From an uncultured archaeon (GTDB taxonomy: Archaea; Asgardarchaeota; Lokiarchaeia; Sigyniarchaeales; SOKP01), in NCBI GenBank assembly GCA_964493715.1, contig CAZBPC010000026.1, positions 1 to 35,131 of the forward strand: a stretch of DNA of 35,131 nucleotides. The letters are read 5' to 3'. The position numbers and the translations under genes are program-made. Below the pieces are notes generated by a model, which did not search any database, had not been told where the DNA came from, and was given only the letters and a program-made list of their open reading frames with translations. Position 1 is the stretch's first letter, and every line of letters begins with the position of its first letter. Positions 15,797 to 35,131 of the stretch are shown here, in pieces.

Positions 15797-15889
15797 GGCC
15801 CTTGACGGTTGGGGTGGTCTCTGACGCTGGGCTTCAAACCCAGTTATCCTGCGGAGGGATAGCGGTTCGATTCCGCTCGAGGGCCGCCA
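15797..15889 (+). tRNA. selC: tRNA-Sec (anticodon UCA), 9/4 fold, encoded CCA
   Basis: 9-bp acceptor GGCCCTTGA/TCGAGGGCC, 7-bp D stem GTTGGGG/CTCTGAC, anticodon arm GCTGGG-CTTCAAA-CCCAGT, long variable arm, 4-bp T stem GCGG/CCGC, GCCA end. Confidence 0.97.
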
Positions 15890-26407: not shown

Positions 26408-26521
26408 GCAACGGTAGCCTAGCCTGGTAAGACGCTGGATTGGAATTTTTGGATAAACCATCCAATTGATCATACATCCAGTGTGAGTGATCACTCGGGG
26501 GTTCGAATCCCTCCCGTTGCG
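26408..26521 (+). tRNA. tRNA-Ser(GGA) with a 30-nt intron at 37/38 (26446-26475)
   Basis: Acceptor GCAACGG/CCGTTGC, G73, anticodon arm CTGGA-TTGGAA|A-TCCAG, variable arm GTGA/TCAC, T arm GGGGG-TTCGAAT-CCCTC, intron hairpin TTGGAT/ATCCAA. Confidence 0.9.
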
Positions 26522-29534: not shown

Positions 29535-29831
29535 TTAAAACAAACTTCCTATCCCTGTAGGCTCTTCTTCTTCTTCCTCTTCTTCTTTCTTTTCTTCCTT
29601 AACTTCCGCTGTAGCGGGTGCGGCACCACCAACATGAGCTGCCATTACAGGAGCTGCAGCAGCAGAACTAATAATATCATCAATATTTGCTTCTTTTAGC
29701 CCGGCGACGAGCTTAGTAATCTGAGAATTATCAATATTTGCTCCAGCTGCTTTTAGTACTTTTTCAATAGCACTATCCGTGATACTTTTACCTGCTTTAT
29801 GTAGAAGCAAGGCTGCGTATATACTTTCCAT
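29535..29831 (-). CDS. rpl12: 50S ribosomal stalk protein P1 (aL12)
   Basis: MESIYAALLLH, Ala-rich hinge and acidic tail ending GIGSLF. Confidence 0.96.
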   Translation of the reverse strand: MESIYAALLLHKAGKSITDSAIEKVLKAAGANIDNSQITKLVAGLKEANIDDIISSAAAAPVMAAHVGGAAPATAEVKEEKKEEEEEEEEPTGIGSLF

Positions 29832-29903
29832 TTTACAAATCCTCTTATAAGTTTATTATATTTCAAATGTTAATCAACTATTTTTTCAAAAAAATTATTT
29901 TTA

Positions 29904-30872
29904 TTAACCAAAAAGTCCTCCTATGCCAACTTCTTCATCTTCTTCCTCCTCTTTATCATCTTCAGGAGGCTTGGAAGAACTTCCACTCGTGGGAACCGAG
30001 ATTCCTCCACCTAAAAGTAATGAGTTTAAGATTGTGGCATTTGAAACTGCTTTTTGGATATATTCATCTCTCATGTCTTGAATGTAAACGGGGGAATCAA
30101 ATAAGATCCCGAGTGCTTCTCTATAAGCTTTTTGAATCATTGGTTTAATGGTTTCTTTATCTACAACGCCAAGTTCGATTGCTAATTGTTGAGCCGCAAA
30201 ATAGGCAGATGCTAAATCTTGTTTGAATCCTTCAAGATCCATGTAAATCACGTCGGCTGAGTAGATTTCTCCATCACTCCACGCGTAATGAATTTTAATC
30301 AAGGATTCTATAGGATTTACACCCAACTTCTTTAAGACTGCAGCTTGTTTTACATTCACAAAATCTCCAGCTTTGTGGGTCCTTGTAGGCTCACGTATCC
30401 AAATTGTATCATGTTGAATCTGGGTGGGTAATCGCAACGTCATGTTAAGTTCACTAATGACTTGCCCAGTTGGTAGACCAGTATCTCCAGCAGGAACCCA
30501 AATATCAATCGGAGTTATATCATCTGGTTTAGCTGGAACCATCCATAAATTATCATTAAAAATCTTCTTTAATTCAAAAACATCAATGTCTGTAAAGCAC
30601 AACGCTGATTGTCCGGGAAGGTTATCAACAAGATAATCCAAATTCTTCTTCGCTGATTCATTTTTGAACCGTTCAATAGCTCTAATTTGCAAATTTTTCT
30701 TTGACATTTTAATAATTGCTTTTCCACGTAATAACTTTCGAATGTCTTGAACTTGTTTGTCATTCAAGCTAGCAACTTTCAGCACCATTACATATTTGTA
30801 TTTATTGAATAGTTCTATCAGATAATCAACTTCATCTAATTTCCATTGAGGGATATGCTTTTTTCCAATCAT
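29904..30872 (-). CDS. rpl10: 50S ribosomal protein uL10 (P0)
   Basis: IPQWK, VPAGDTG, AAVLKKLGVNP and acidic tail GIGGLFG. Confidence 0.96.
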   Translation of the reverse strand: MIGKKHIPQWKLDEVDYLIELFNKYKYVMVLKVASLNDKQVQDIRKLLRGKAIIKMSKKNLQIRAIERFKNESAKKNLDYLVDNLPGQSALCFTDIDVFELKKIFNDNLWMVPAKPDDITPIDIWVPAGDTGLPTGQVISELNMTLRLPTQIQHDTIWIREPTRTHKAGDFVNVKQAAVLKKLGVNPIESLIKIHYAWSDGEIYSADVIYMDLEGFKQDLASAYFAAQQLAIELGVVDKETIKPMIQKAYREALGILFDSPVYIQDMRDEYIQKAVSNATILNSLLLGGGISVPTSGSSSKPPEDDKEEEEDEEVGIGGLFG

Positions 30873-30876
30873 TTAA

Positions 30877-31605
30877 TCACACCTTTACGCTTTTTAAGAA
30901 TTGTTCATCAATTTTTACAGGGCGTCCCATCGTAGTTTTTAAATACATTGATTTGATATTATTATATTTATGGGGTAGTTGATCTGCTACATAATTCACA
31001 ACCGTCTTAAGATTTTCGAATAGTTTCTCTTGTTCCATTGATTTCTTCCCGATTTTAACTTGAACTGTTGGTTGTTTTTTTAACTGAATTCGAATGACTT
31101 TTAAATAACGTTCGATGGTCATTTTAAGATCTTCAGCATTTGAGATGATTCCGTATCCACTTGGAAATGGTTTTGGCATTTTTCCCAAGGGTCCTAAAAA
31201 TCGAGCTAAGTATCGGGCAACATTTGGCATCATTTTATCTTCTACAATGAAAAAGTCATAGTTTTTTACAAATTTTTTCTTTTGTTTCTTTTCTTCATTG
31301 TTCATTTTAACTAATCCATCAGAATCAATTGTATCTAAACCTAAATTCTTTGCTTCCATTAGAACTTCATCAGAAGCAATAACGCATACGTTTGGTTTAT
31401 CCATAAGCAGAATATCATAAGGAAGAATAATTTCCTTATCAATTCTCTGCTTTGGGTCACTTAAGTTTATATCCTTGAGGTTGATTACAAAATCAAGAGT
31501 CTCGTCAAATTTCCGATTTTTATCTTTAAAACCCTCTTTTTTAAAAGCCGAAAACTCAATAGCAGCACTAATTGATTTTTTCAACAATTTATCGTCTACT
31601 TTCAT
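30877..31605 (-). CDS. rpl1: 50S ribosomal protein uL1
   Basis: RKFDETLDFVINLK, LGPLGKMPKP and YLKTTMG motifs. Confidence 0.96.
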   Translation of the reverse strand: MKVDDKLLKKSISAAIEFSAFKKEGFKDKNRKFDETLDFVINLKDINLSDPKQRIDKEIILPYDILLMDKPNVCVIASDEVLMEAKNLGLDTIDSDGLVKMNNEEKKQKKKFVKNYDFFIVEDKMMPNVARYLARFLGPLGKMPKPFPSGYGIISNAEDLKMTIERYLKVIRIQLKKQPTVQVKIGKKSMEQEKLFENLKTVVNYVADQLPHKYNNIKSMYLKTTMGRPVKIDEQFLKSVKV

Positions 31606-31608
31606 TGT

Positions 31609-32141
31609 TTATATCTCCCCCGTAATTCTATCATCATAATCTCCATTATCAATACGTTCTTGAATCTTACGTGGATCTTCCCCTTCCACTGTTACCCCTA
31701 TTGATAAAGCAGTCCCCAATACAGATTTAATGGCTGCTTTGTACGTTCGGTTTAAGAAAATCTCTTTTTTTGCTTCGACGACGTTCATGATTTGATCCAA
31801 TTTCATATCGCCAATCTTGTTAGATGAGCAAGAATCACTCCCCTTTTGAACTCCAATCTCCTTTAAAAGTAACGAGGCAGTCGAGGGAGTCTCTATGAAG
31901 ATTTCAAACTTTTTAGTCTCAGGATCACATACAATTCTAACTGGTACAGTTAAACCTTTGAATAACATTGTCTTTTCGTTTACTGTGTCGACCACGTCTT
32001 TTATGTTTATACCCGTGGGTCCAACGGCAGGTCCTTTACCTTTTATTATTAAAACGATTTGTTTTAGGAAATAGGCGGCCCGCCTGATGCACTTCCACCA
32101 GTCACGAGAGCTTTTATGGTTATTTTTCCTTTTTCACTCAC
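31609..32141 (-). CDS. rpl11: 50S ribosomal protein uL11, split by a 35-nt intron: complement(join(31609..32035,32071..32141)), 165 aa
   Basis: GTG start at 32141 with GGTGAG RBS. Exon 1 MSEKGKITIKALVTGGSASGGPP(I), then TCC TAA. Exon 2 in another frame, GPAVGPTGINIKDVVDTVNEKT... Joining restores the conserved GPPxGPAxGPxG. Confidence 0.93.
32036..32070 (-). other. Putative BHB-type mRNA intron in rpl11 (35 nt)
   Basis: Central helix GCCU/AGGU, bulges AU|U and AA|A, exon-exon helix GGCGGGCC/GG(A)CCUGCC, internal hairpin UAAAAC/GUUUUA. Confidence 0.85.
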
Positions 32142-32190
32142 ATGTACTCACCGTATTCTTTTTATTATATAGATTTATTATCAAAATATA

Positions 32191-32290
32191 TCTTTAAGGT
32201 TAAGAACGCGAATTTACTATTTATGAATAATTCATTTCCGATATCTTAATTATATCGAAACCGCATCAAATTGCGTCCTAAGCCTTTAGA
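32191..32290 (-). promoter_or_regulatory. Structured RNA element upstream of rpl11 (candidate leader or ncRNA)
   Basis: Long imperfect stem AAGGCUUAGGACGCAAUUU / AAAUUCGCGUUCUUAACCUU enclosing hairpin UUUCGAUAU/AUAUCGGAA. Confidence 0.5.
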
Positions 32291-32350
32291 ATAAAATTTT
32301 GAACTTAGTATGATTTAAAATATAACAAGATTAAAAAATTTTATTAAACA

Positions 32351-35131
32351 TTAAATAGTTCGATATTCCATAATATCCTTGATAATTAACTTTACCTCTT
32401 CCATCTCAATTCTTTTATAATCATATCCTTCTGCTGTGGGTATATATTTTTGTATATTGGATGCCCAAGAGAATGTAAAATCATTTAACCTATCTATCGC
32501 TTTCTGGATATCTTTCTCTTCCCAATTTATAAGTTCCTTTAACTTTTTAGGGTTCTTTGAATAGACTGCGTCTTCTATTACTTTGGAATTCTTTTCAATT
32601 ACTTTTTCAATTTTTTTTAAACGCAAAATGGTTTTTTCCCGAGTATTAACTTTAATATTATCTCTTCTAAGATTACCCTCTAAACCCGATATTATATTAT
32701 GAGTCAAATATTCTCTCACTAAATAGTCTCCTTTTCTAAACTTTTCTGGAGGTTTAATAGGAATGAAAACAAGATCGTTTTCTGATCTCCCTACAGGATT
32801 ATAATGAAAATGATGAAAATTCGCATAAATCTTGCAAATATTTTTTGATGTAATTTTGTTACCCCATATATCAAAACCATCGAATGGACTAAAACCAAGC
32901 ATCAATAAAAATCTCTTTACACGTAATTTATGAGAAAAAAAGTAATTCTGATATTTTCCATATCTCTCTTGTTCTCTTATTTTTTTTTGGGTTTTTTTTT
33001 CTGTATATTGATAAAAATCTCTTCTTTTACATTCAAACTTTTCAAGAAGAATTCTTAATGTTTGTTTACTCTTATCATTAGCTTGAAGATTATTAATTAA
33101 TTCGTTGAATTTTTCAACAAAAAACTCAAGATTTGATTCTTTATTAAAAACATTTGGATTTGCTAATTTCTCTAATAATCTACTTGCCTTTTTATTTTTT
33201 GATATAAATTGTAAGTCATTCATTAAATCTGTAAATCTATCTTTATAGAATTTTAAAGTTTCAAGAATTAAATCAATCAAAACAACATTGTCAATTCTCT
33301 CCATATTTTCATATTCAATTTGTGTCTTTAATAAAAAATCTTTTAAATTCTCTTCATCAAATATTATAATAGAATGTTGGATGTTTATATGACTCTCCAA
33401 TTGTTTCATAACTTTATAAAAAATATTTCGAAGATTATACCCATTTTCTTTTAATTTATCTACAAATCCTTTTTTAAATATAGGCTCATATTCTAAAATT
33501 GAATAGTATGCTAAGCTGGCAGCTAAATACTTTGGGTGTTTTGTTATTATTGTATTTTCATTAAATCCATTAGAAATTGCTTCTGAATAAAGATCTAATG
33601 CCCGTTTAATATATAAATCTCTATTCTTTTCAACGAAAATTCCTACAAATTTCTTTAGGAATTCCTTTACTTTCTGAAAATCAACCTCTTGCTTGTCATT
33701 ATAGAACCTTTTTGGTCTATAAAGTAAATTCTCTTTTACATCTTCAGTTAAGTAATCGTAAATAAATGCTACAGTAGAATAATTTGAATCCTTATAATCT
33801 GGGAAATAAAAATCAGAAAATTCGGTCATACTTAATGACTCAGAAACTTTAGAATCTTGGTGTTTATATGCCAAAAAAATAAAAGCAACAGACATATTTT
33901 TAGGCGATGAAAACCATTTATTTCTTTCAATTATTTCTTGAAAAGAAAAAACTTTTGGTGGGTTCTGTGCATTTTCAAGTAGATTAATTGACAAATTTTT
34001 AATAATCTCTGAATTTGGAAGATGTAGTGAAAATTTTAAAAGATTATCTCTTATTTTTTGAATAAATGAATTATTAGGGTCTTTCACCCTAATAATTTCC
34101 TTATCATTATCTTTAAAACCCTGAAAATTGTATTCTTCCTTAATCTTTCTGGGTTTATATGTTACATTTTGCTTTTGATAATTAGAAAGATATTTATAAA
34201 TTACAGGAATTGTATTCGTAATCGCCAGTTTCATAGTCGTTTTATCTGGAAAAAAATCTTTGATAAACTCCATTACTCCATAGATTTTGTATTTTGGATG
34301 TCTTTGGCAATAAATTCTTCCTCTTAAAGCGAAATATATTATACTCACTGCCAAGTATCTAACATTTGTTTTATAACCTAGAGGTAAATCATCAACTCTT
34401 AGTTTGGGTGGATTATCAACTAAATCTTTAAAAATATCATGTGCTAATTGAGATAATAACTCTGAATCTTCAAATTGTGATGAAAATTGTGAAATAAATT
34501 CTAAAGTTTTATTGGAAGGACGTGAATTAGAACCCCTGGCTGATGTTGTTGGAAAGCGATCGTTCAATCGAATTTTATGCTTAAATTGAAGATATCTAGC
34601 AGTGTTGGTTACAAAATCTCTTGAAACGCCATATTTATTACTTAATTCAGTTATAGAATCATTTAACGTTGAATCTAAAATATTTAGCATTAACTTTCCT
34701 AAAATCGAAATATATTTTTTTTTATTTCCTAATCTTTCTTTTGCTTCATTTTTATAGCTTATATTTGACGAATCTATCTTCTCATTAGAACTAAGAATAC
34801 CTATAGCGCTTAATAGTGCTTCAAGTATTGTATCAGAATTAAAATCATTTGATTTCGGTGAATTTTTAGCTATATAATTATAAACTACATCCCTAACTTT
34901 ATGATAAAATTTCCCTCTAAAGCTATTTGTAATAGGGGTTCTAAAATTTTCACTATCTTTTGCATTTTCTTTAGTTTCTAAACTCCTTATATTTGATTGA
35001 ATTTTGCTAAAATCATATGTATTTAAATCCCTAAATATGATTGCATCAAATTTTTCAATTGGACCTTTATTCCATAATTCAGAAACTAGTAGGAAAACTT
35101 GTTTTACTAACCATCTTAGATATACAACGAA
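32351..35131 (-). CDS. Large hypothetical protein (at least 926 aa, 5' end outside the window) with TFIIB/cyclin-like repeats and a possible C-terminal HNH-like motif
   Basis: Hand translation shows the frame open without stops from 34691 to the window end. Repeats ...RYLAVSIIYFALR, ...PKNMSVAFIFLAYK, ...PKYLAASLAYYSIL; FHHFHYN...NDLVFIP...H near the C-terminus. Confidence 0.7.
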   Translation of the reverse strand, partial: FVVYLRWLVKQVFLLVSELWNKGPIEKFDAIIFRDLNTYDFSKIQSNIRSLETKENAKDSENFRTPITNSFRGKFYHKVRDVVYNYIAKNSPKSNDFNSDTILEALLSAIGILSSNEKIDSSNISYKNEAKERLGNKKKYISILGKLMLNILDSTLNDSITELSNKYGVSRDFVTNTARYLQFKHKIRLNDRFPTTSARGSNSRPSNKTLEFISQFSSQFEDSELLSQLAHDIFKDLVDNPPKLRVDDLPLGYKTNVRYLAVSIIYFALRGRIYCQRHPKYKIYGVMEFIKDFFPDKTTMKLAITNTIPVIYKYLSNYQKQNVTYKPRKIKEEYNFQGFKDNDKEIIRVKDPNNSFIQKIRDNLLKFSLHLPNSEIIKNLSINLLENAQNPPKVFSFQEIIERNKWFSSPKNMSVAFIFLAYKHQDSKVSESLSMTEFSDFYFPDYKDSNYSTVAFIYDYLTEDVKENLLYRPKRFYNDKQEVDFQKVKEFLKKFVGIFVEKNRDLYIKRALDLYSEAISNGFNENTIITKHPKYLAASLAYYSILEYEPIFKKGFVDKLKENGYNLRNIFYKVMKQLESHINIQHSIIIFDEENLKDFLLKTQIEYENMERIDNVVLIDLILETLKFYKDRFTDLMNDLQFISKNKKASRLLEKLANPNVFNKESNLEFFVEKFNELINNLQANDKSKQTLRILLEKFECKRRDFYQYTEKKTQKKIREQERYGKYQNYFFSHKLRVKRFLLMLGFSPFDGFDIWGNKITSKNICKIYANFHHFHYNPVGRSENDLVFIPIKPPEKFRKGDYLVREYLTHNIISGLEGNLRRDNIKVNTREKTILRLKKIEKVIEKNSKVIEDAVYSKNPKKLKELINWEEKDIQKAIDRLNDFTFSWASNIQKYIPTAEGYDYKRIEMEEVKLIIKDIMEYRTI

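What the first reader, a model, noticed from the sequence alone, without database searches (positions are those of the whole stretch)
32026..32084. 35-nt BHB intron interrupts rpl11 in the conserved GPPI^GPAVGP motif
Seen (minus strand): ...GGC GGG CCG CCT AT|ttcctaaaacaaatcgttttaataataaaaggtaa|A GGA CCT GCC... The central helix GCCU pairs with intron AGGU, both bulges are 3 nt (AU|U, AA|A), and the exons form a strong GC helix GGCGGGCC/GG(A)CCUGCC. The unspliced frame stops at TAA 32064-32066; the spliced product is 165 aa. The insert is very AT-rich within a locally GC-rich codon stretch. The junction creates an AUA Ile codon. Inference: the intron sits in the loop of a pre-existing mRNA hairpin that mimics a tRNA arm, consistent with insertion by reverse tRNA-type splicing.
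Basis: partly seen in the sequence, partly recalled or inferred. Interest (0 to 1): 0.88.

Follow-up and report, generated by a model that had tools for sequence, protein, structure and literature searches.

The report
tRNA-type mini-intron splits Asgard rpl11
The only gene for ribosomal protein L11 in this Asgard archaeon is broken by a 35-base insert shaped like a tRNA intron, which the cell almost certainly cuts out of the messenger RNA; related species carry such inserts at four spots in the same gene, a kind of gene splitting that papers report in archaea for essentially one other gene.

Summary

It is a relaxed bulge-helix-bulge (BHB) intron:
- It is the genome's only L11 gene.
- 16 species carry a homologous insert at this codon, with covarying pairs.
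- A close relative has the gene precisely uninterrupted.
- One metatranscriptome contig skips exactly 32036-32070, while a DNA contig keeps it.

New here:
- Of 105 distinct rpl11 loci from relatives, 41 carry 28-38-nt inserts at four sites within 75 nt, up to two per gene. Carriers were seen only in this Promethearchaeia (Loki-type) family.
- The same genome has BHB introns in rtcB, cdhD, nadE and a Toprim (DnaG-like) gene.
- It encodes a catalytic and a His-less EndA subunit, plus RtcB.

Mosaic 5' exons point instead to DNA-level exchange.

The papers I could search report coding BHB introns only for crenarchaeal cbf5. This scan has already noted BHB introns in other Asgard genes (cobO, iolM) and in DPANN rtcB, on other DNA.

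Verdict: real, and a new member of a known kind. The four-site, fast-turnover pattern is the surprising part.

The parts
32071..32141 (-). rpl11 exon 1 (GTG start; 23 codons plus 2 nt; encodes the N-terminal strand up to GGPP-I)
   Evidence: Relatives have ATG at the same place and conserve the peptide with synonymous changes.
32036..32070 (-). 35-nt BHB-type intron (7 of 35 G+C), with an in-frame TAA at 32064-32066
   Evidence: It is absent precisely in L004. RNA contig record 19 of run X16 skips exactly this range.
31609..32035 (-). rpl11 exon 2 (141 codons plus 1 nt, and the stop)
   Evidence: Pfam L11_N positions 17-58 and Ribosomal_L11 2-69.
32073..32076 (-). 5' strand of the central 4-bp helix (GCCU, the end of exon 1), followed by bulge A32072 U32071 | U32070
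   Evidence: Fold; pair counts (columns 18-21 with 54-57: 87.5% of cells paired).
32038..32041 (-). 3' strand of the central helix (AGGU, the end of the intron), followed by bulge A32037 A32036 | A32035
32077..32084 (-). Outer (exon-exon) helix, 5' strand GGCGGGCC
   Evidence: In one search the GGNCC:GGNCC pairs are invariant, and the N:N' pair covaries (AU 7, GU 4, GC 2, UA 1, unpaired 2).
32026..32034 (-). Outer helix, 3' strand GG(A)CCUGCC in exon 2
32050..32066 (-). Hairpin inside the intron: UAAAAC / pentaloop AAAUC / GUUUUA
   Evidence: In one search, columns 27-33 with 39-45 show pair 32-40 as GC 10, AU 5, GU 1. C-NNNUC-G loops occur in 32 of 51 rpl11 inserts.
29535..31605 (-). The rest of the operon on the same transcript direction: rpl1 30877-31605, rpl10/P0 29904-30872, rpl12/P1 29535-29831. 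All are uninterrupted.

Best explanation
The 35 nt at 32036-32070 are an archaeal tRNA-type (bulge-helix-bulge) intron inside the coding sequence of the single rpl11 gene of a Promethearchaeia (Loki-type Asgard) archaeon.

Proposed mechanism:
1. On the pre-mRNA, two GGNCC words from Gly-Pro codons on either side of the insert pair as an exon-exon helix.
2. The last four exon-1 bases (GCCU) pair with the last four helix bases of the intron (AGGU).
3. This leaves two 3-nt bulges (AU|U and AA|A) on opposite strands.
4. The heteromeric splicing endonuclease cuts after the second base of each bulge. It consists of one catalytic EndA subunit and one His-less structural subunit.
5. RtcB joins the exons. 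This creates an AUA Ile codon and a 165-aa L11.

Unspliced RNA would give only a 25-residue peptide.

Shown here: the DNA anatomy, the fold, covariation, precise absence in relatives, the enzymes' genes, and one RNA-library contig with the exact junction.

Inferred: that EndA and RtcB are the enzymes that act, and that splicing is efficient.

The intron belongs to a population of 28-38-nt hairpin mini-introns. In this family these occupy four sites within 75 nt of rpl11 and at least four other protein genes of this genome. They turn over quickly between species.
For: (1) Single-copy essential gene. One L11_N hit and one L11 hit in a genome that is 100% complete.

(2) Domain continuity. Exon 2 starts at Pfam L11_N position 17. 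Exon 1 supplies the conserved start.

(3) Precise presence and absence. L004 (90% aa identity) is continuous across the junction. 16 distinct loci carry a 30-36-nt insert at the same codon.

(4) Structure. The minimum-energy and centroid folds are the BHB. On 16 sequences, 85.7% of cells are paired, against 22-62% when the partners are slid, and 0 of 500 shuffles reach the observed pairing or covariation score. The synonymous N:N' pair across the intron is pairable in 14 of 16 carriers against 43 of 89 non-carriers.

(5) Sister sites show the same design.
- Site A: central helix 100% paired. The exon's Gly third base covaries with the intron's 3' end (AU 7, UA 7, UG 3 of 17).
- Site C: central helix 100% paired, 90.1% overall.

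(6) RNA. In metatranscriptome run X16, contig record 19 (151 nt, depth 3) lies on 31967-32035 and 32071-152. It skips exactly 35 nt, with 69 nt on the shorter side and no positional ambiguity. DNA run X1 record 4 spans 31975-32078 unspliced with 0 differences. The RNA contig differs from the window at 4 of 151 positions. The nearest species representatives differ at 15 (intronless L004) and 16 (L003).

(7) Machinery. There are two EndA genes. One retains Tyr/His/Lys and best matches the Aeropyrum chain 3p1z_B. The other has the His replaced. RtcB is present. Published work assigns (alpha-beta)2 EndA with the broad-specificity L1 loop to Asgard (PMC5829648, passages read).

(8) The same genome has BHB inserts with exact Pfam continuity in three genes: rtcB (1-46 | 48-426), nadE (3-143 | 144-242) and cdhD (7-178 | 181-227).
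Against: The RNA evidence is thin. It is one contig of depth 3 in one run of an RNA library that may hold DNA. That run also holds relatives at 93-95% identity (table 8). An unsampled intronless near-relative could therefore have produced the contig. RNA runs X15 and X17 do not cover the junction.

The fold energy is not better than shuffles (z = -1.06).

The motif is relaxed:
- There is no inner helix directly next to the 5' bulge.
- The fourth central pair is unpaired in 7 of 16 homologues.
- The outer helix has a G-A mismatch in this window.

No enzyme assay has been done, and no circular intron or peptide has been detected. rtcB itself needs splicing in this genome.
Confidence: 0.9

Rival explanations
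1. The insert is not removed. The gene is broken in this lineage, or L11 is made without its N-terminal strand from the internal GTG at 31995. On this reading the junction contig comes from an intronless sister strain.
For: The RNA contig has 4 differences from the window, and run X16 holds several related populations. An ORF of 128 aa from GTG 31995 exists.
Against: - This is the only L11 gene in a complete genome.
- Exon 1 stays open and its peptide is conserved with synonymous changes in all 16 carriers.
- Insert ends covary with exon bases, which a dead gene would not maintain.
- The truncated protein would lack Pfam L11_N positions 1-29 or so.
- 41 of 105 loci would all have to be broken, always within the same 75 nt.
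Confidence: 0.03
2. The ribosome bypasses the 35 nt (a translational hop of the phage T4 gene 60 or mitochondrial byp type) and the RNA is never cut.
For: A short insert with a stop codon close behind the take-off region and a hairpin inside. This resemblance is recalled and was not tested.
Against: - There are no matching take-off and landing codons. The sequence shows AUU or CCU before the gap and AAA before the resume site.
- An RNA-library contig lacks the 35 nt.
- What is conserved is pairing between exon bases and intron ends, in BHB geometry, at three sites.
- tRNA genes of the same genome carry inserts of like size and hairpin.
Confidence: 0.02
3. The insert is excised from RNA, but by something other than EndA plus RtcB: another nuclease/ligase pair, or a self-cleaving element.
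For: The motif is relaxed, and no enzyme was tested. rtcB in this genome is itself interrupted.
Against: - The cut sites fall after the second base of two 3-nt bulges separated by 4 bp, which is EndA's ruler.
- No Rfam family other than two tRNAs reaches threshold in the window.
- 35 nt is too short for a known ribozyme intron (established knowledge).
- Both EndA subunits and RtcB are encoded.
Confidence: 0.05

Closest known systems
BHB intron in the cbf5 pre-mRNA of Desulfurococcales and Sulfolobales (Watanabe 2002; Yoshinari 2006; Yokobori 2009, PMC2738675, passages read)
   Same: A short BHB-bounded insert inside a protein-coding sequence. It breaks the frame, is removed by the tRNA-splicing pathway, occurs in a host with heteromeric EndA, and is present or absent by lineage.
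   Different: - The host gene is rpl11, and also rtcB, cdhD, nadE and a Toprim gene.
- The phylum is Asgard, and these are mesophile-type AT-rich genomes.
- There are four alternative sites within 75 nt and up to two introns per gene.
- Species that differ by a few percent in the rest of the gene differ in intron pattern. cbf5 has one site.
Multiple non-canonical tRNA introns of Asgard archaea (PMC11291895, passages read; bioRxiv 10.64898/2026.10.13.758758, abstract and one passage) and transposed tRNA introns of Thermoproteales (named only in an earlier scan note; not read)
   Same: - Same size class.
- Same BHB or relaxed BHB ends.
- Same host enzymes.
- Many independent gains have been proposed.
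- This genome's tRNA genes are also heavily interrupted: ARAGORN finds only 27 tRNAs, 12 with introns. At least one tRNA intron has the same stem-AAAUC-stem hairpin.
   Different: Those papers, as far as I read them, treat tRNA genes only. Here the host is an mRNA, so splicing must restore a reading frame and compete with ribosomes.
BHB element in the 5' UTR of Haloferax volcanii HVO_1309 (PMC7714728, passages read)
   Same: An mRNA is a substrate of the archaeal splicing endonuclease in vivo and in vitro.
   Different: That element lies in the untranslated leader, not in the coding sequence, and the host has a homodimeric EndA.
HAC1/XBP1 unconventional mRNA splicing of eukaryotes (Ire1 cut, RtcB or Trl1 ligation; recalled, and named as a third intron type in the abstract of PMC12530127, search listing)
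   Same: It works alike: a short frame-changing insert flanked by stem-loops is removed without a spliceosome by a protein endonuclease and a tRNA ligase.
   Different: The endonuclease is Ire1, not EndA. That system is regulated by stress, and no regulation is shown here. There is no evidence of common descent.

Membership tests
Archaeal BHB (tRNA-type) intron | Two 3-nt bulges on opposite strands, separated by a 4-bp helix at the exon-intron boundaries, with at least one flanking helix (canonical hBHBh', or relaxed hBH / HBh' / BHL) | tested here: met
   The minimum-energy and centroid folds show GCCU:AGGU, bulges AUU and AAA, and an outer helix of 8 pairs with one bulged A. There is no inner helix directly next to the 5' bulge, so this is the relaxed form.
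Archaeal BHB (tRNA-type) intron | Cuts at symmetric positions in the two bulges, giving a product collinear with uninterrupted homologues | tested here: met
   Cutting after base 2 of each bulge removes 32036-32070. Intronless L004 and 63 other loci are continuous at exactly this point. The RNA contig's joint is at 32035/32071 with no ambiguity.
Archaeal BHB (tRNA-type) intron | The structure, not the sequence, is conserved (compensatory changes) | tested here: met
   - 7 pairs change on both sides, and 0 of 500 shuffles reach the covariation score.
- pair 18-59 is AU 7, UA 7, UG 3.
- covariation in the inner helix.
Caveat: the sequences are related, so the shuffle counts overstate the support.
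Archaeal BHB (tRNA-type) intron | The host encodes a splicing endonuclease able to cut relaxed motifs, and an RtcB ligase | tested here: met
   There are two EndA paralogues, one catalytic and one lacking the His, and an RtcB. I did not test for the broad-specificity L1 loop. It is reported for Asgard in PMC5829648.
Archaeal BHB (tRNA-type) intron | The spliced RNA exists | tested here: met
   One contig of depth 3 in RNA run X16 carries the junction. This is weak: a single run, contigs rather than reads, and a source strain 97% identical to the window.
Archaeal BHB (tRNA-type) intron | EndA chemistry: 2',3'-cyclic phosphate and 5'-OH ends, and a circular intron | not testable with these tools
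   This needs enzyme assays or circRNA-seq.
cbf5 pre-mRNA intron (orthologous group) | The insert lies in the cbf5/truB gene of Crenarchaeota | tested here: not met
   The host gene is rpl11 (Pfam) in a Promethearchaeota genome (record titles). It is the same kind of element but not the same intron.
Self-splicing group I / group II introns | A ribozyme core of hundreds of nt | tested here: not met
   The insert is 35 nt. Rfam at gathering threshold finds only tRNA-Sec and one tRNA in the window.
Translational bypass element (gene 60 type) | Matching take-off and landing codons flanking the gap | tested here: not met
   Read directly from the sequence: the codons before the gap and before the resume point do not match.

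The most novel reading that the evidence does not exclude
A living, mobile population of roughly 30-nt BHB mini-introns is colonising protein-coding genes in one family of Loki-type Asgard archaea. These introns share a stem-NNNUC-stem hairpin.

The introns land in conserved Gly/Pro-rich motifs, where GGNCC-type codon words supply exon helices in an AT-rich genome. They are gained, lost or exchanged between species on the timescale of a few percent sequence divergence. rpl11 shows this with four sites in 75 nt, up to two per gene, and mosaic 5' exon haplotypes.

They have even entered rtcB, the ligase needed to remove them.

This would be a protein-enzyme-spliced route to interrupted mRNAs, operating today in the closest prokaryotic relatives of eukaryotes.
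Probability: 0.45. Interest if true: 0.88.

Novelty: new member of a known kind. Interest (0 to 1): 0.8.

Why it matters
Archaeal genes are annotated as if they had no introns. Here a universal, essential ribosomal protein gene would be called as a 25-aa stub plus an N-terminally truncated L11 in 41 of 105 related genomes. The same applies to rtcB, nadE, cdhD and a Toprim gene.

A 2020 paper I read in passages (PMC7714728) states that cbf5 is the only coding-sequence BHB intron reported. My six literature searches found nothing newer on mRNA introns in Asgard. (Supplements were closed, and subscription journals are not in the library.)

If the pattern holds, Asgard archaea offer a natural system for three questions:
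- How do enzyme-spliced introns enter, spread in and leave mRNAs?
- How does splicing compete with coupled translation?
- Does the cell's tRNA-splicing capacity become tied to ribosome and ligase production?

It also gives gene callers and marker-gene pipelines a concrete rule to add.

Tried and rejected
(1) De novo genome-wide counts of BHB plus ORF-fusion candidates in the 3.68-Mb genome never exceeded a mirror-pair decoy:
- 101 real against 129 decoy.
- 337 against 326 after adding A-first bulges and lengths of 24-45 nt.
- 48 against 47 after a codon-usage filter.
- 557 against 561 when anchored on NNNUC hairpins.
The scan did recover 4 of the 5 known introns. These scans give no usable total, and I rejected them as a way of counting.

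(2) RNA runs X15 and X17 have contigs on rpl1 and on parts of rpl11 but none across the junction. They say nothing either way.

(3) Fold energy against shuffles is not significant, so I did not use it as support.

(4) I mapped sites on a quick maximum-likelihood tree of 750 nt downstream. It used 90 of 105 rows; 15 were dropped for short flanks. The minimum changes were A 12, B 12, D 2 and C 7, for 15, 12, 4 and 8 carriers. The tree is short and poorly resolved, and recombination is evident. I therefore do not read these numbers as counts of gains.

(5) An apparently truncated L11_N match outside the family (G078) is cut by a contig end. It is not an intron.

(6) The first look-up of earlier notes for 'intron' in this genome found nothing.

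(7) (literature search) failed on a term that was too long. I re-ran it with shorter terms.

Full report
WHAT IS THERE

On the minus strand, an L11-L1-L10(P0)-L12 operon occupies 29535-32141 (ORFs; Pfam). Its first gene is in two pieces.
- Exon 1 starts at GTG 32141 and ends at 32071.
- Thirty-five bases follow, at 32070-32036. They have 7 of 35 G+C and contain an in-frame TAA at 32064-32066.
- Exon 2 runs from 32035 to the stop at 31609-31611.

Exon 2 alone matches Pfam Ribosomal_L11_N from profile position 17 of 58, and the whole C-terminal domain. Removing the 35 nt creates an ATA codon and a 165-codon frame. The span 32026-32084 is the full extent of the proposed RNA motif.

IS IT REAL DNA, AND IS THIS THE ONLY COPY?

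The window is contig 26 of a 3.68-Mb, 160-contig genome rated 100% complete. That genome has one L11_N hit and one L11 hit, both here.

A DNA run holds a 104-nt contig that spans 31975-32078 with no difference from the window (record 4). Independent assemblies of other species carry homologous inserts at the same codon. An assembly artefact is excluded.

WHO IS IT?

Record titles of the closest rpl11 loci name Promethearchaeota / Promethearchaeia MAGs, that is, Loki-type Asgard archaea. The genome has 31% G+C. ARAGORN finds only 27 tRNA genes, 12 of them with introns. This fits published reports that most Asgard tRNA genes are interrupted (PMC11291895, passages; bioRxiv 10.64898/2026.10.13.758758, abstract).

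THE FOLD

It has these parts:
- An exon-exon helix, GGCGGGCC with GG(A)CCUGCC.
- A 4-bp helix between the end of exon 1 (GCCU) and the end of the intron (AGGU).
- A 3-nt bulge AAA on the 3' strand.
- AUU opening the 5' side.
- A small hairpin with pentaloop AAAUC inside the intron.

This is the tRNA-like arrangement: each bulge lies 3' of its central-helix strand. Because no inner helix abuts the 5' bulge, it is a relaxed motif (hBH/BHL type). The energy is not better than shuffles (z = -1.06), so the fold alone proves nothing.

COMPARATIVE EVIDENCE

I collected rpl11 loci from three sources:
- 30 from relatives.
- 17 more from the genus.
- 80 from the species-representative collection.

Of these 127, five were dropped: four cut by contig ends and one without the anchor. 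Of the remaining 122, 105 were distinct.

Sixty-four have no insert. Forty-one have 28-38-nt inserts at one or two of four sites, all within 75 nt of coding sequence:

| Site | Position | Loci | Length |
|---|---|---|---|
| A | after GG, in a Ser codon | 17 | 28-38 nt |
| B | this finding, PPI^G | 16 | 30-36 nt |
| D | GPAV^GP | 5 | 28-30 nt |
| C | TGI^N | 13 | 28-29 nt |

The combinations seen are AC 5, AB 3, BC 1 and AD 1.

Inserts whose length is a multiple of three carry in-frame stops. I read this from the sequences.

All ten loci from other families of the order are uninterrupted. In an even sample of 151 genomes of the phylum, interrupted L11_N matches occur only in this family. The one apparent exception is a contig end.

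COVARIATION

For site B (16 sequences, alignment A1):
- 85.7% of cells pair, against 22-62% with slid partners.
- Seven pairs change on both sides.
- 0 of 500 shuffles reach the observed pairing or covariation score.

The most telling pair joins two synonymous Gly third positions on either side of the intron: AU 7, GU 4, GC 2, UA 1, unpaired 2. That position is pairable in 14 of 16 carriers but only 43 of 89 loci without a site-B intron.

Two weak points remain. The central pair next to the 5' bulge is unpaired in 7 of 16, and this window has the G-A mismatch.

For site A (17 sequences), the central helix is paired in every cell. The exon's GGA/GGU choice covaries with the last helix base of the intron (AU 7, UA 7, UG 3).

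For site C (13 sequences), the central helix is again 100% paired and the inner hairpin shows four pairs with double changes.

By eye, site D has GGCU with AGCC/AGUU, bulges GU|A and CA|A or AA|A, and GGNCC:GGNCC outer helices (sequences). I made no formal count for it.

The sequences are related, so the shuffle statistics overstate the support. The slid controls and the double changes do not depend on that.

RNA

I laid one DNA run and three metatranscriptome runs on 30900-32300.
- In RNA run X16, contig record 19 (151 nt, depth 3) aligns to 31967-32035 and 32071-32152. The joint skips exactly 35 nt, with 69 nt on the shorter side and zero positional ambiguity.
- No such joint is seen in DNA run X1.
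- The contig differs from the window at 4 of 151 positions. The nearest species representatives differ at 15 (intronless L004) and 16 (L003) over the same stretch. The source is therefore closer to this genome than any sampled species.
- X16 also holds contigs at 93-95% identity, the evidence is contigs rather than reads, and X15 and X17 do not cover the junction.

I treat this as a real but single observation.

MACHINERY

The genome has two EndA-family ORFs.
- The 207-aa ORF keeps the catalytic Tyr/His/Lys in alignment with its best PDB match, 3p1z_B. It also matches 2zyz_B, which by my recollection is the Pyrobaculum catalytic chain.
- The 205-aa ORF has the His replaced when aligned to the M. 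jannaschii enzyme 1a79.

This is what a heteromeric (alpha-beta)2 enzyme would look like. That is the type reported for Asgard, and the type that cuts relaxed motifs (PMC5829648, passages).

RtcB is present, but its gene is itself split. A 29-nt insert at C2:12136-12164 lies between PGGVGY and DINCG. It has a canonical BHB: UUGG with CCAA, bulges AU|A and AG|A, and inner helix CAUAA with UUAUG. Pfam shows continuity 1-46 | 48-426. In the genus, only this genome and G001 show the split, while 34 genomes have an uninterrupted 1-426 match.

HOW COMMON IN THIS GENOME?

De novo scans failed to beat decoys, so I have no total.

Instead I aligned 661,729 nt of the intronless-rpl11 relative G022 to this genome. 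That was 60 contigs, of which 541,860 nt aligned. The alignment gave 119 indels of 15-120 nt. Twenty-one lie where the other genome has an ORF open for at least 40 codons on both sides.

By inspection, three of these are BHB inserts in this genome:
- cdhD, C8:45566-45597, 32 nt.
- nadE, C39:8748-8777, 30 nt.
- A Toprim gene whose DnaG-like name I give from recall, C17:13937-13974, 38 nt.

Two more are in a thiolase-like gene of G022, 16 nt apart. The remaining 16 look like ordinary in-frame or low-complexity indels.

Pfam profile coordinates run on across the gap for cdhD (7-178 | 181-227) and nadE (3-143 | 144-242).

Three own-specific introns in about 15% of the genome suggests tens per genome. 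This is my extrapolation and has wide error. Introns shared by both genomes are invisible to this test.

A FAMILY OF INTRONS?

Thirty-two of the 51 rpl11 inserts hold a C-NNNUC-G loop. Seventeen hold UCNNNUCGA: 7 at site A, 6 at site C, 4 at site D and 0 at site B. The genome-wide frequency of that word is 0.174 per kb per strand, which by my arithmetic predicts well under one hit. Carriers are related, so the count is inflated.

The cdhD and Toprim-gene introns have like hairpins. So does a tRNA-Gly intron of this genome. This points to common descent or a shared constraint, and I cannot tell which.

TURNOVER AND ORIGIN

On a tree of the 750 nt downstream, carriers are scattered.

I compared locus pairs that differ at 20 or fewer of 390 downstream positions.
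- Most pairs with the same intron pattern differ at 0-7 of the 75 exonic positions around the sites. Two intronless pairs differ at 18-19.
- Pairs with different patterns differ at 8-27 of 75.

The 5' end of rpl11 is thus a mosaic whose haplotype travels with the intron pattern. That suggests recombination or allele exchange between co-occurring species. MAG chimerism at this conserved spot is the alternative.

WHAT IS KNOWN

Passages of PMC7714728 (2020) state that, beyond tRNA and rRNA, only the cbf5 mRNA intron of Crenarchaeota had been reported, and they add a 5'-UTR case in Haloferax. PMC2738675 (2009) says that no archaeal pre-mRNA splicing other than cbf5 had been confirmed.

Six full-text searches found nothing on BHB introns in Asgard protein genes. 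The library lacks most subscription journals, and supplements were closed.

Earlier notes of this scan report BHB introns in Asgard cobO and iolM and in DPANN rtcB, on other DNA. These are unchecked AI notes. They agree with what I found independently here.

VERDICT

This is a real, almost certainly spliced BHB intron in an essential ribosomal protein gene, and a new member of the cbf5 kind. What is surprising is the four-site, fast-turnover pattern and the company it keeps, rtcB included.

Noticed in passing
own genome contig C2:12136-12164 (minus strand; locus L035): The RNA ligase gene rtcB is itself split by a 29-nt canonical BHB intron between PGGVGY and DINCG. The enzyme that seals spliced exons therefore needs splicing of its own mRNA. 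Only this genome and G001, of 41 in the genus, show the split.
   Followed up: partly
own genome C8:45566-45597, C39:8748-8777, C17:13937-13974 (loci L194-L196): Three further BHB mini-introns (32, 30 and 38 nt) lie in cdhD, nadE and a Toprim (DnaG-like) gene. Each sits inside a highly conserved motif and each is absent from relative G022. Pfam coordinates run on across the gap for cdhD and nadE.
   Followed up: partly
L138 (G022 contig C5) about 3375 and 3425; own orthologue C4:98959-100218: A thiolase-like gene of relative G022 carries two mini-inserts (34 and 31 nt) only 16 nt apart. The gene is uninterrupted in this genome.
   Followed up: no
rpl11 5' region in loci L002-L133: The 75 exonic nt around the four intron sites differ at up to 27 of 75 positions between species whose next 390 nt differ by 5% or less. 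Large differences mostly go with different intron patterns. This looks like recombination or allele exchange, or MAG chimeras.
   Followed up: partly
window 32090-32095, DNA run X1 (table 5c): The same DNA sample holds a relative whose rpl11 has 35 other letters inserted at site A. Intron-pattern variants therefore coexist in one sample.
   Followed up: no
window 26408-26521 (+) and 15797-15885 (+): A tRNA-Ser(GGA) with a predicted 30-nt intron, and a tRNA-Sec gene (ARAGORN, Rfam). Genome-wide, ARAGORN finds only 27 tRNAs, so most tRNA genes are probably too interrupted to be detected.
   Followed up: no
window 32351-34690 (-): A 779-aa ORF directly upstream of rpl11 has no Pfam match at E <= 0.01. 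The open frame continues to the window's end (926 aa).
   Followed up: no
own genome C28 about 34412-34441 (+), C145 (-), C2 (-) (candidates): Further ORF-fusing BHB candidates with the family's hairpin. One example is a 30-nt insert with stem-AAUUC-stem between ORFs of 319 and 82 codons. I did not verify them by homology.
   Followed up: no
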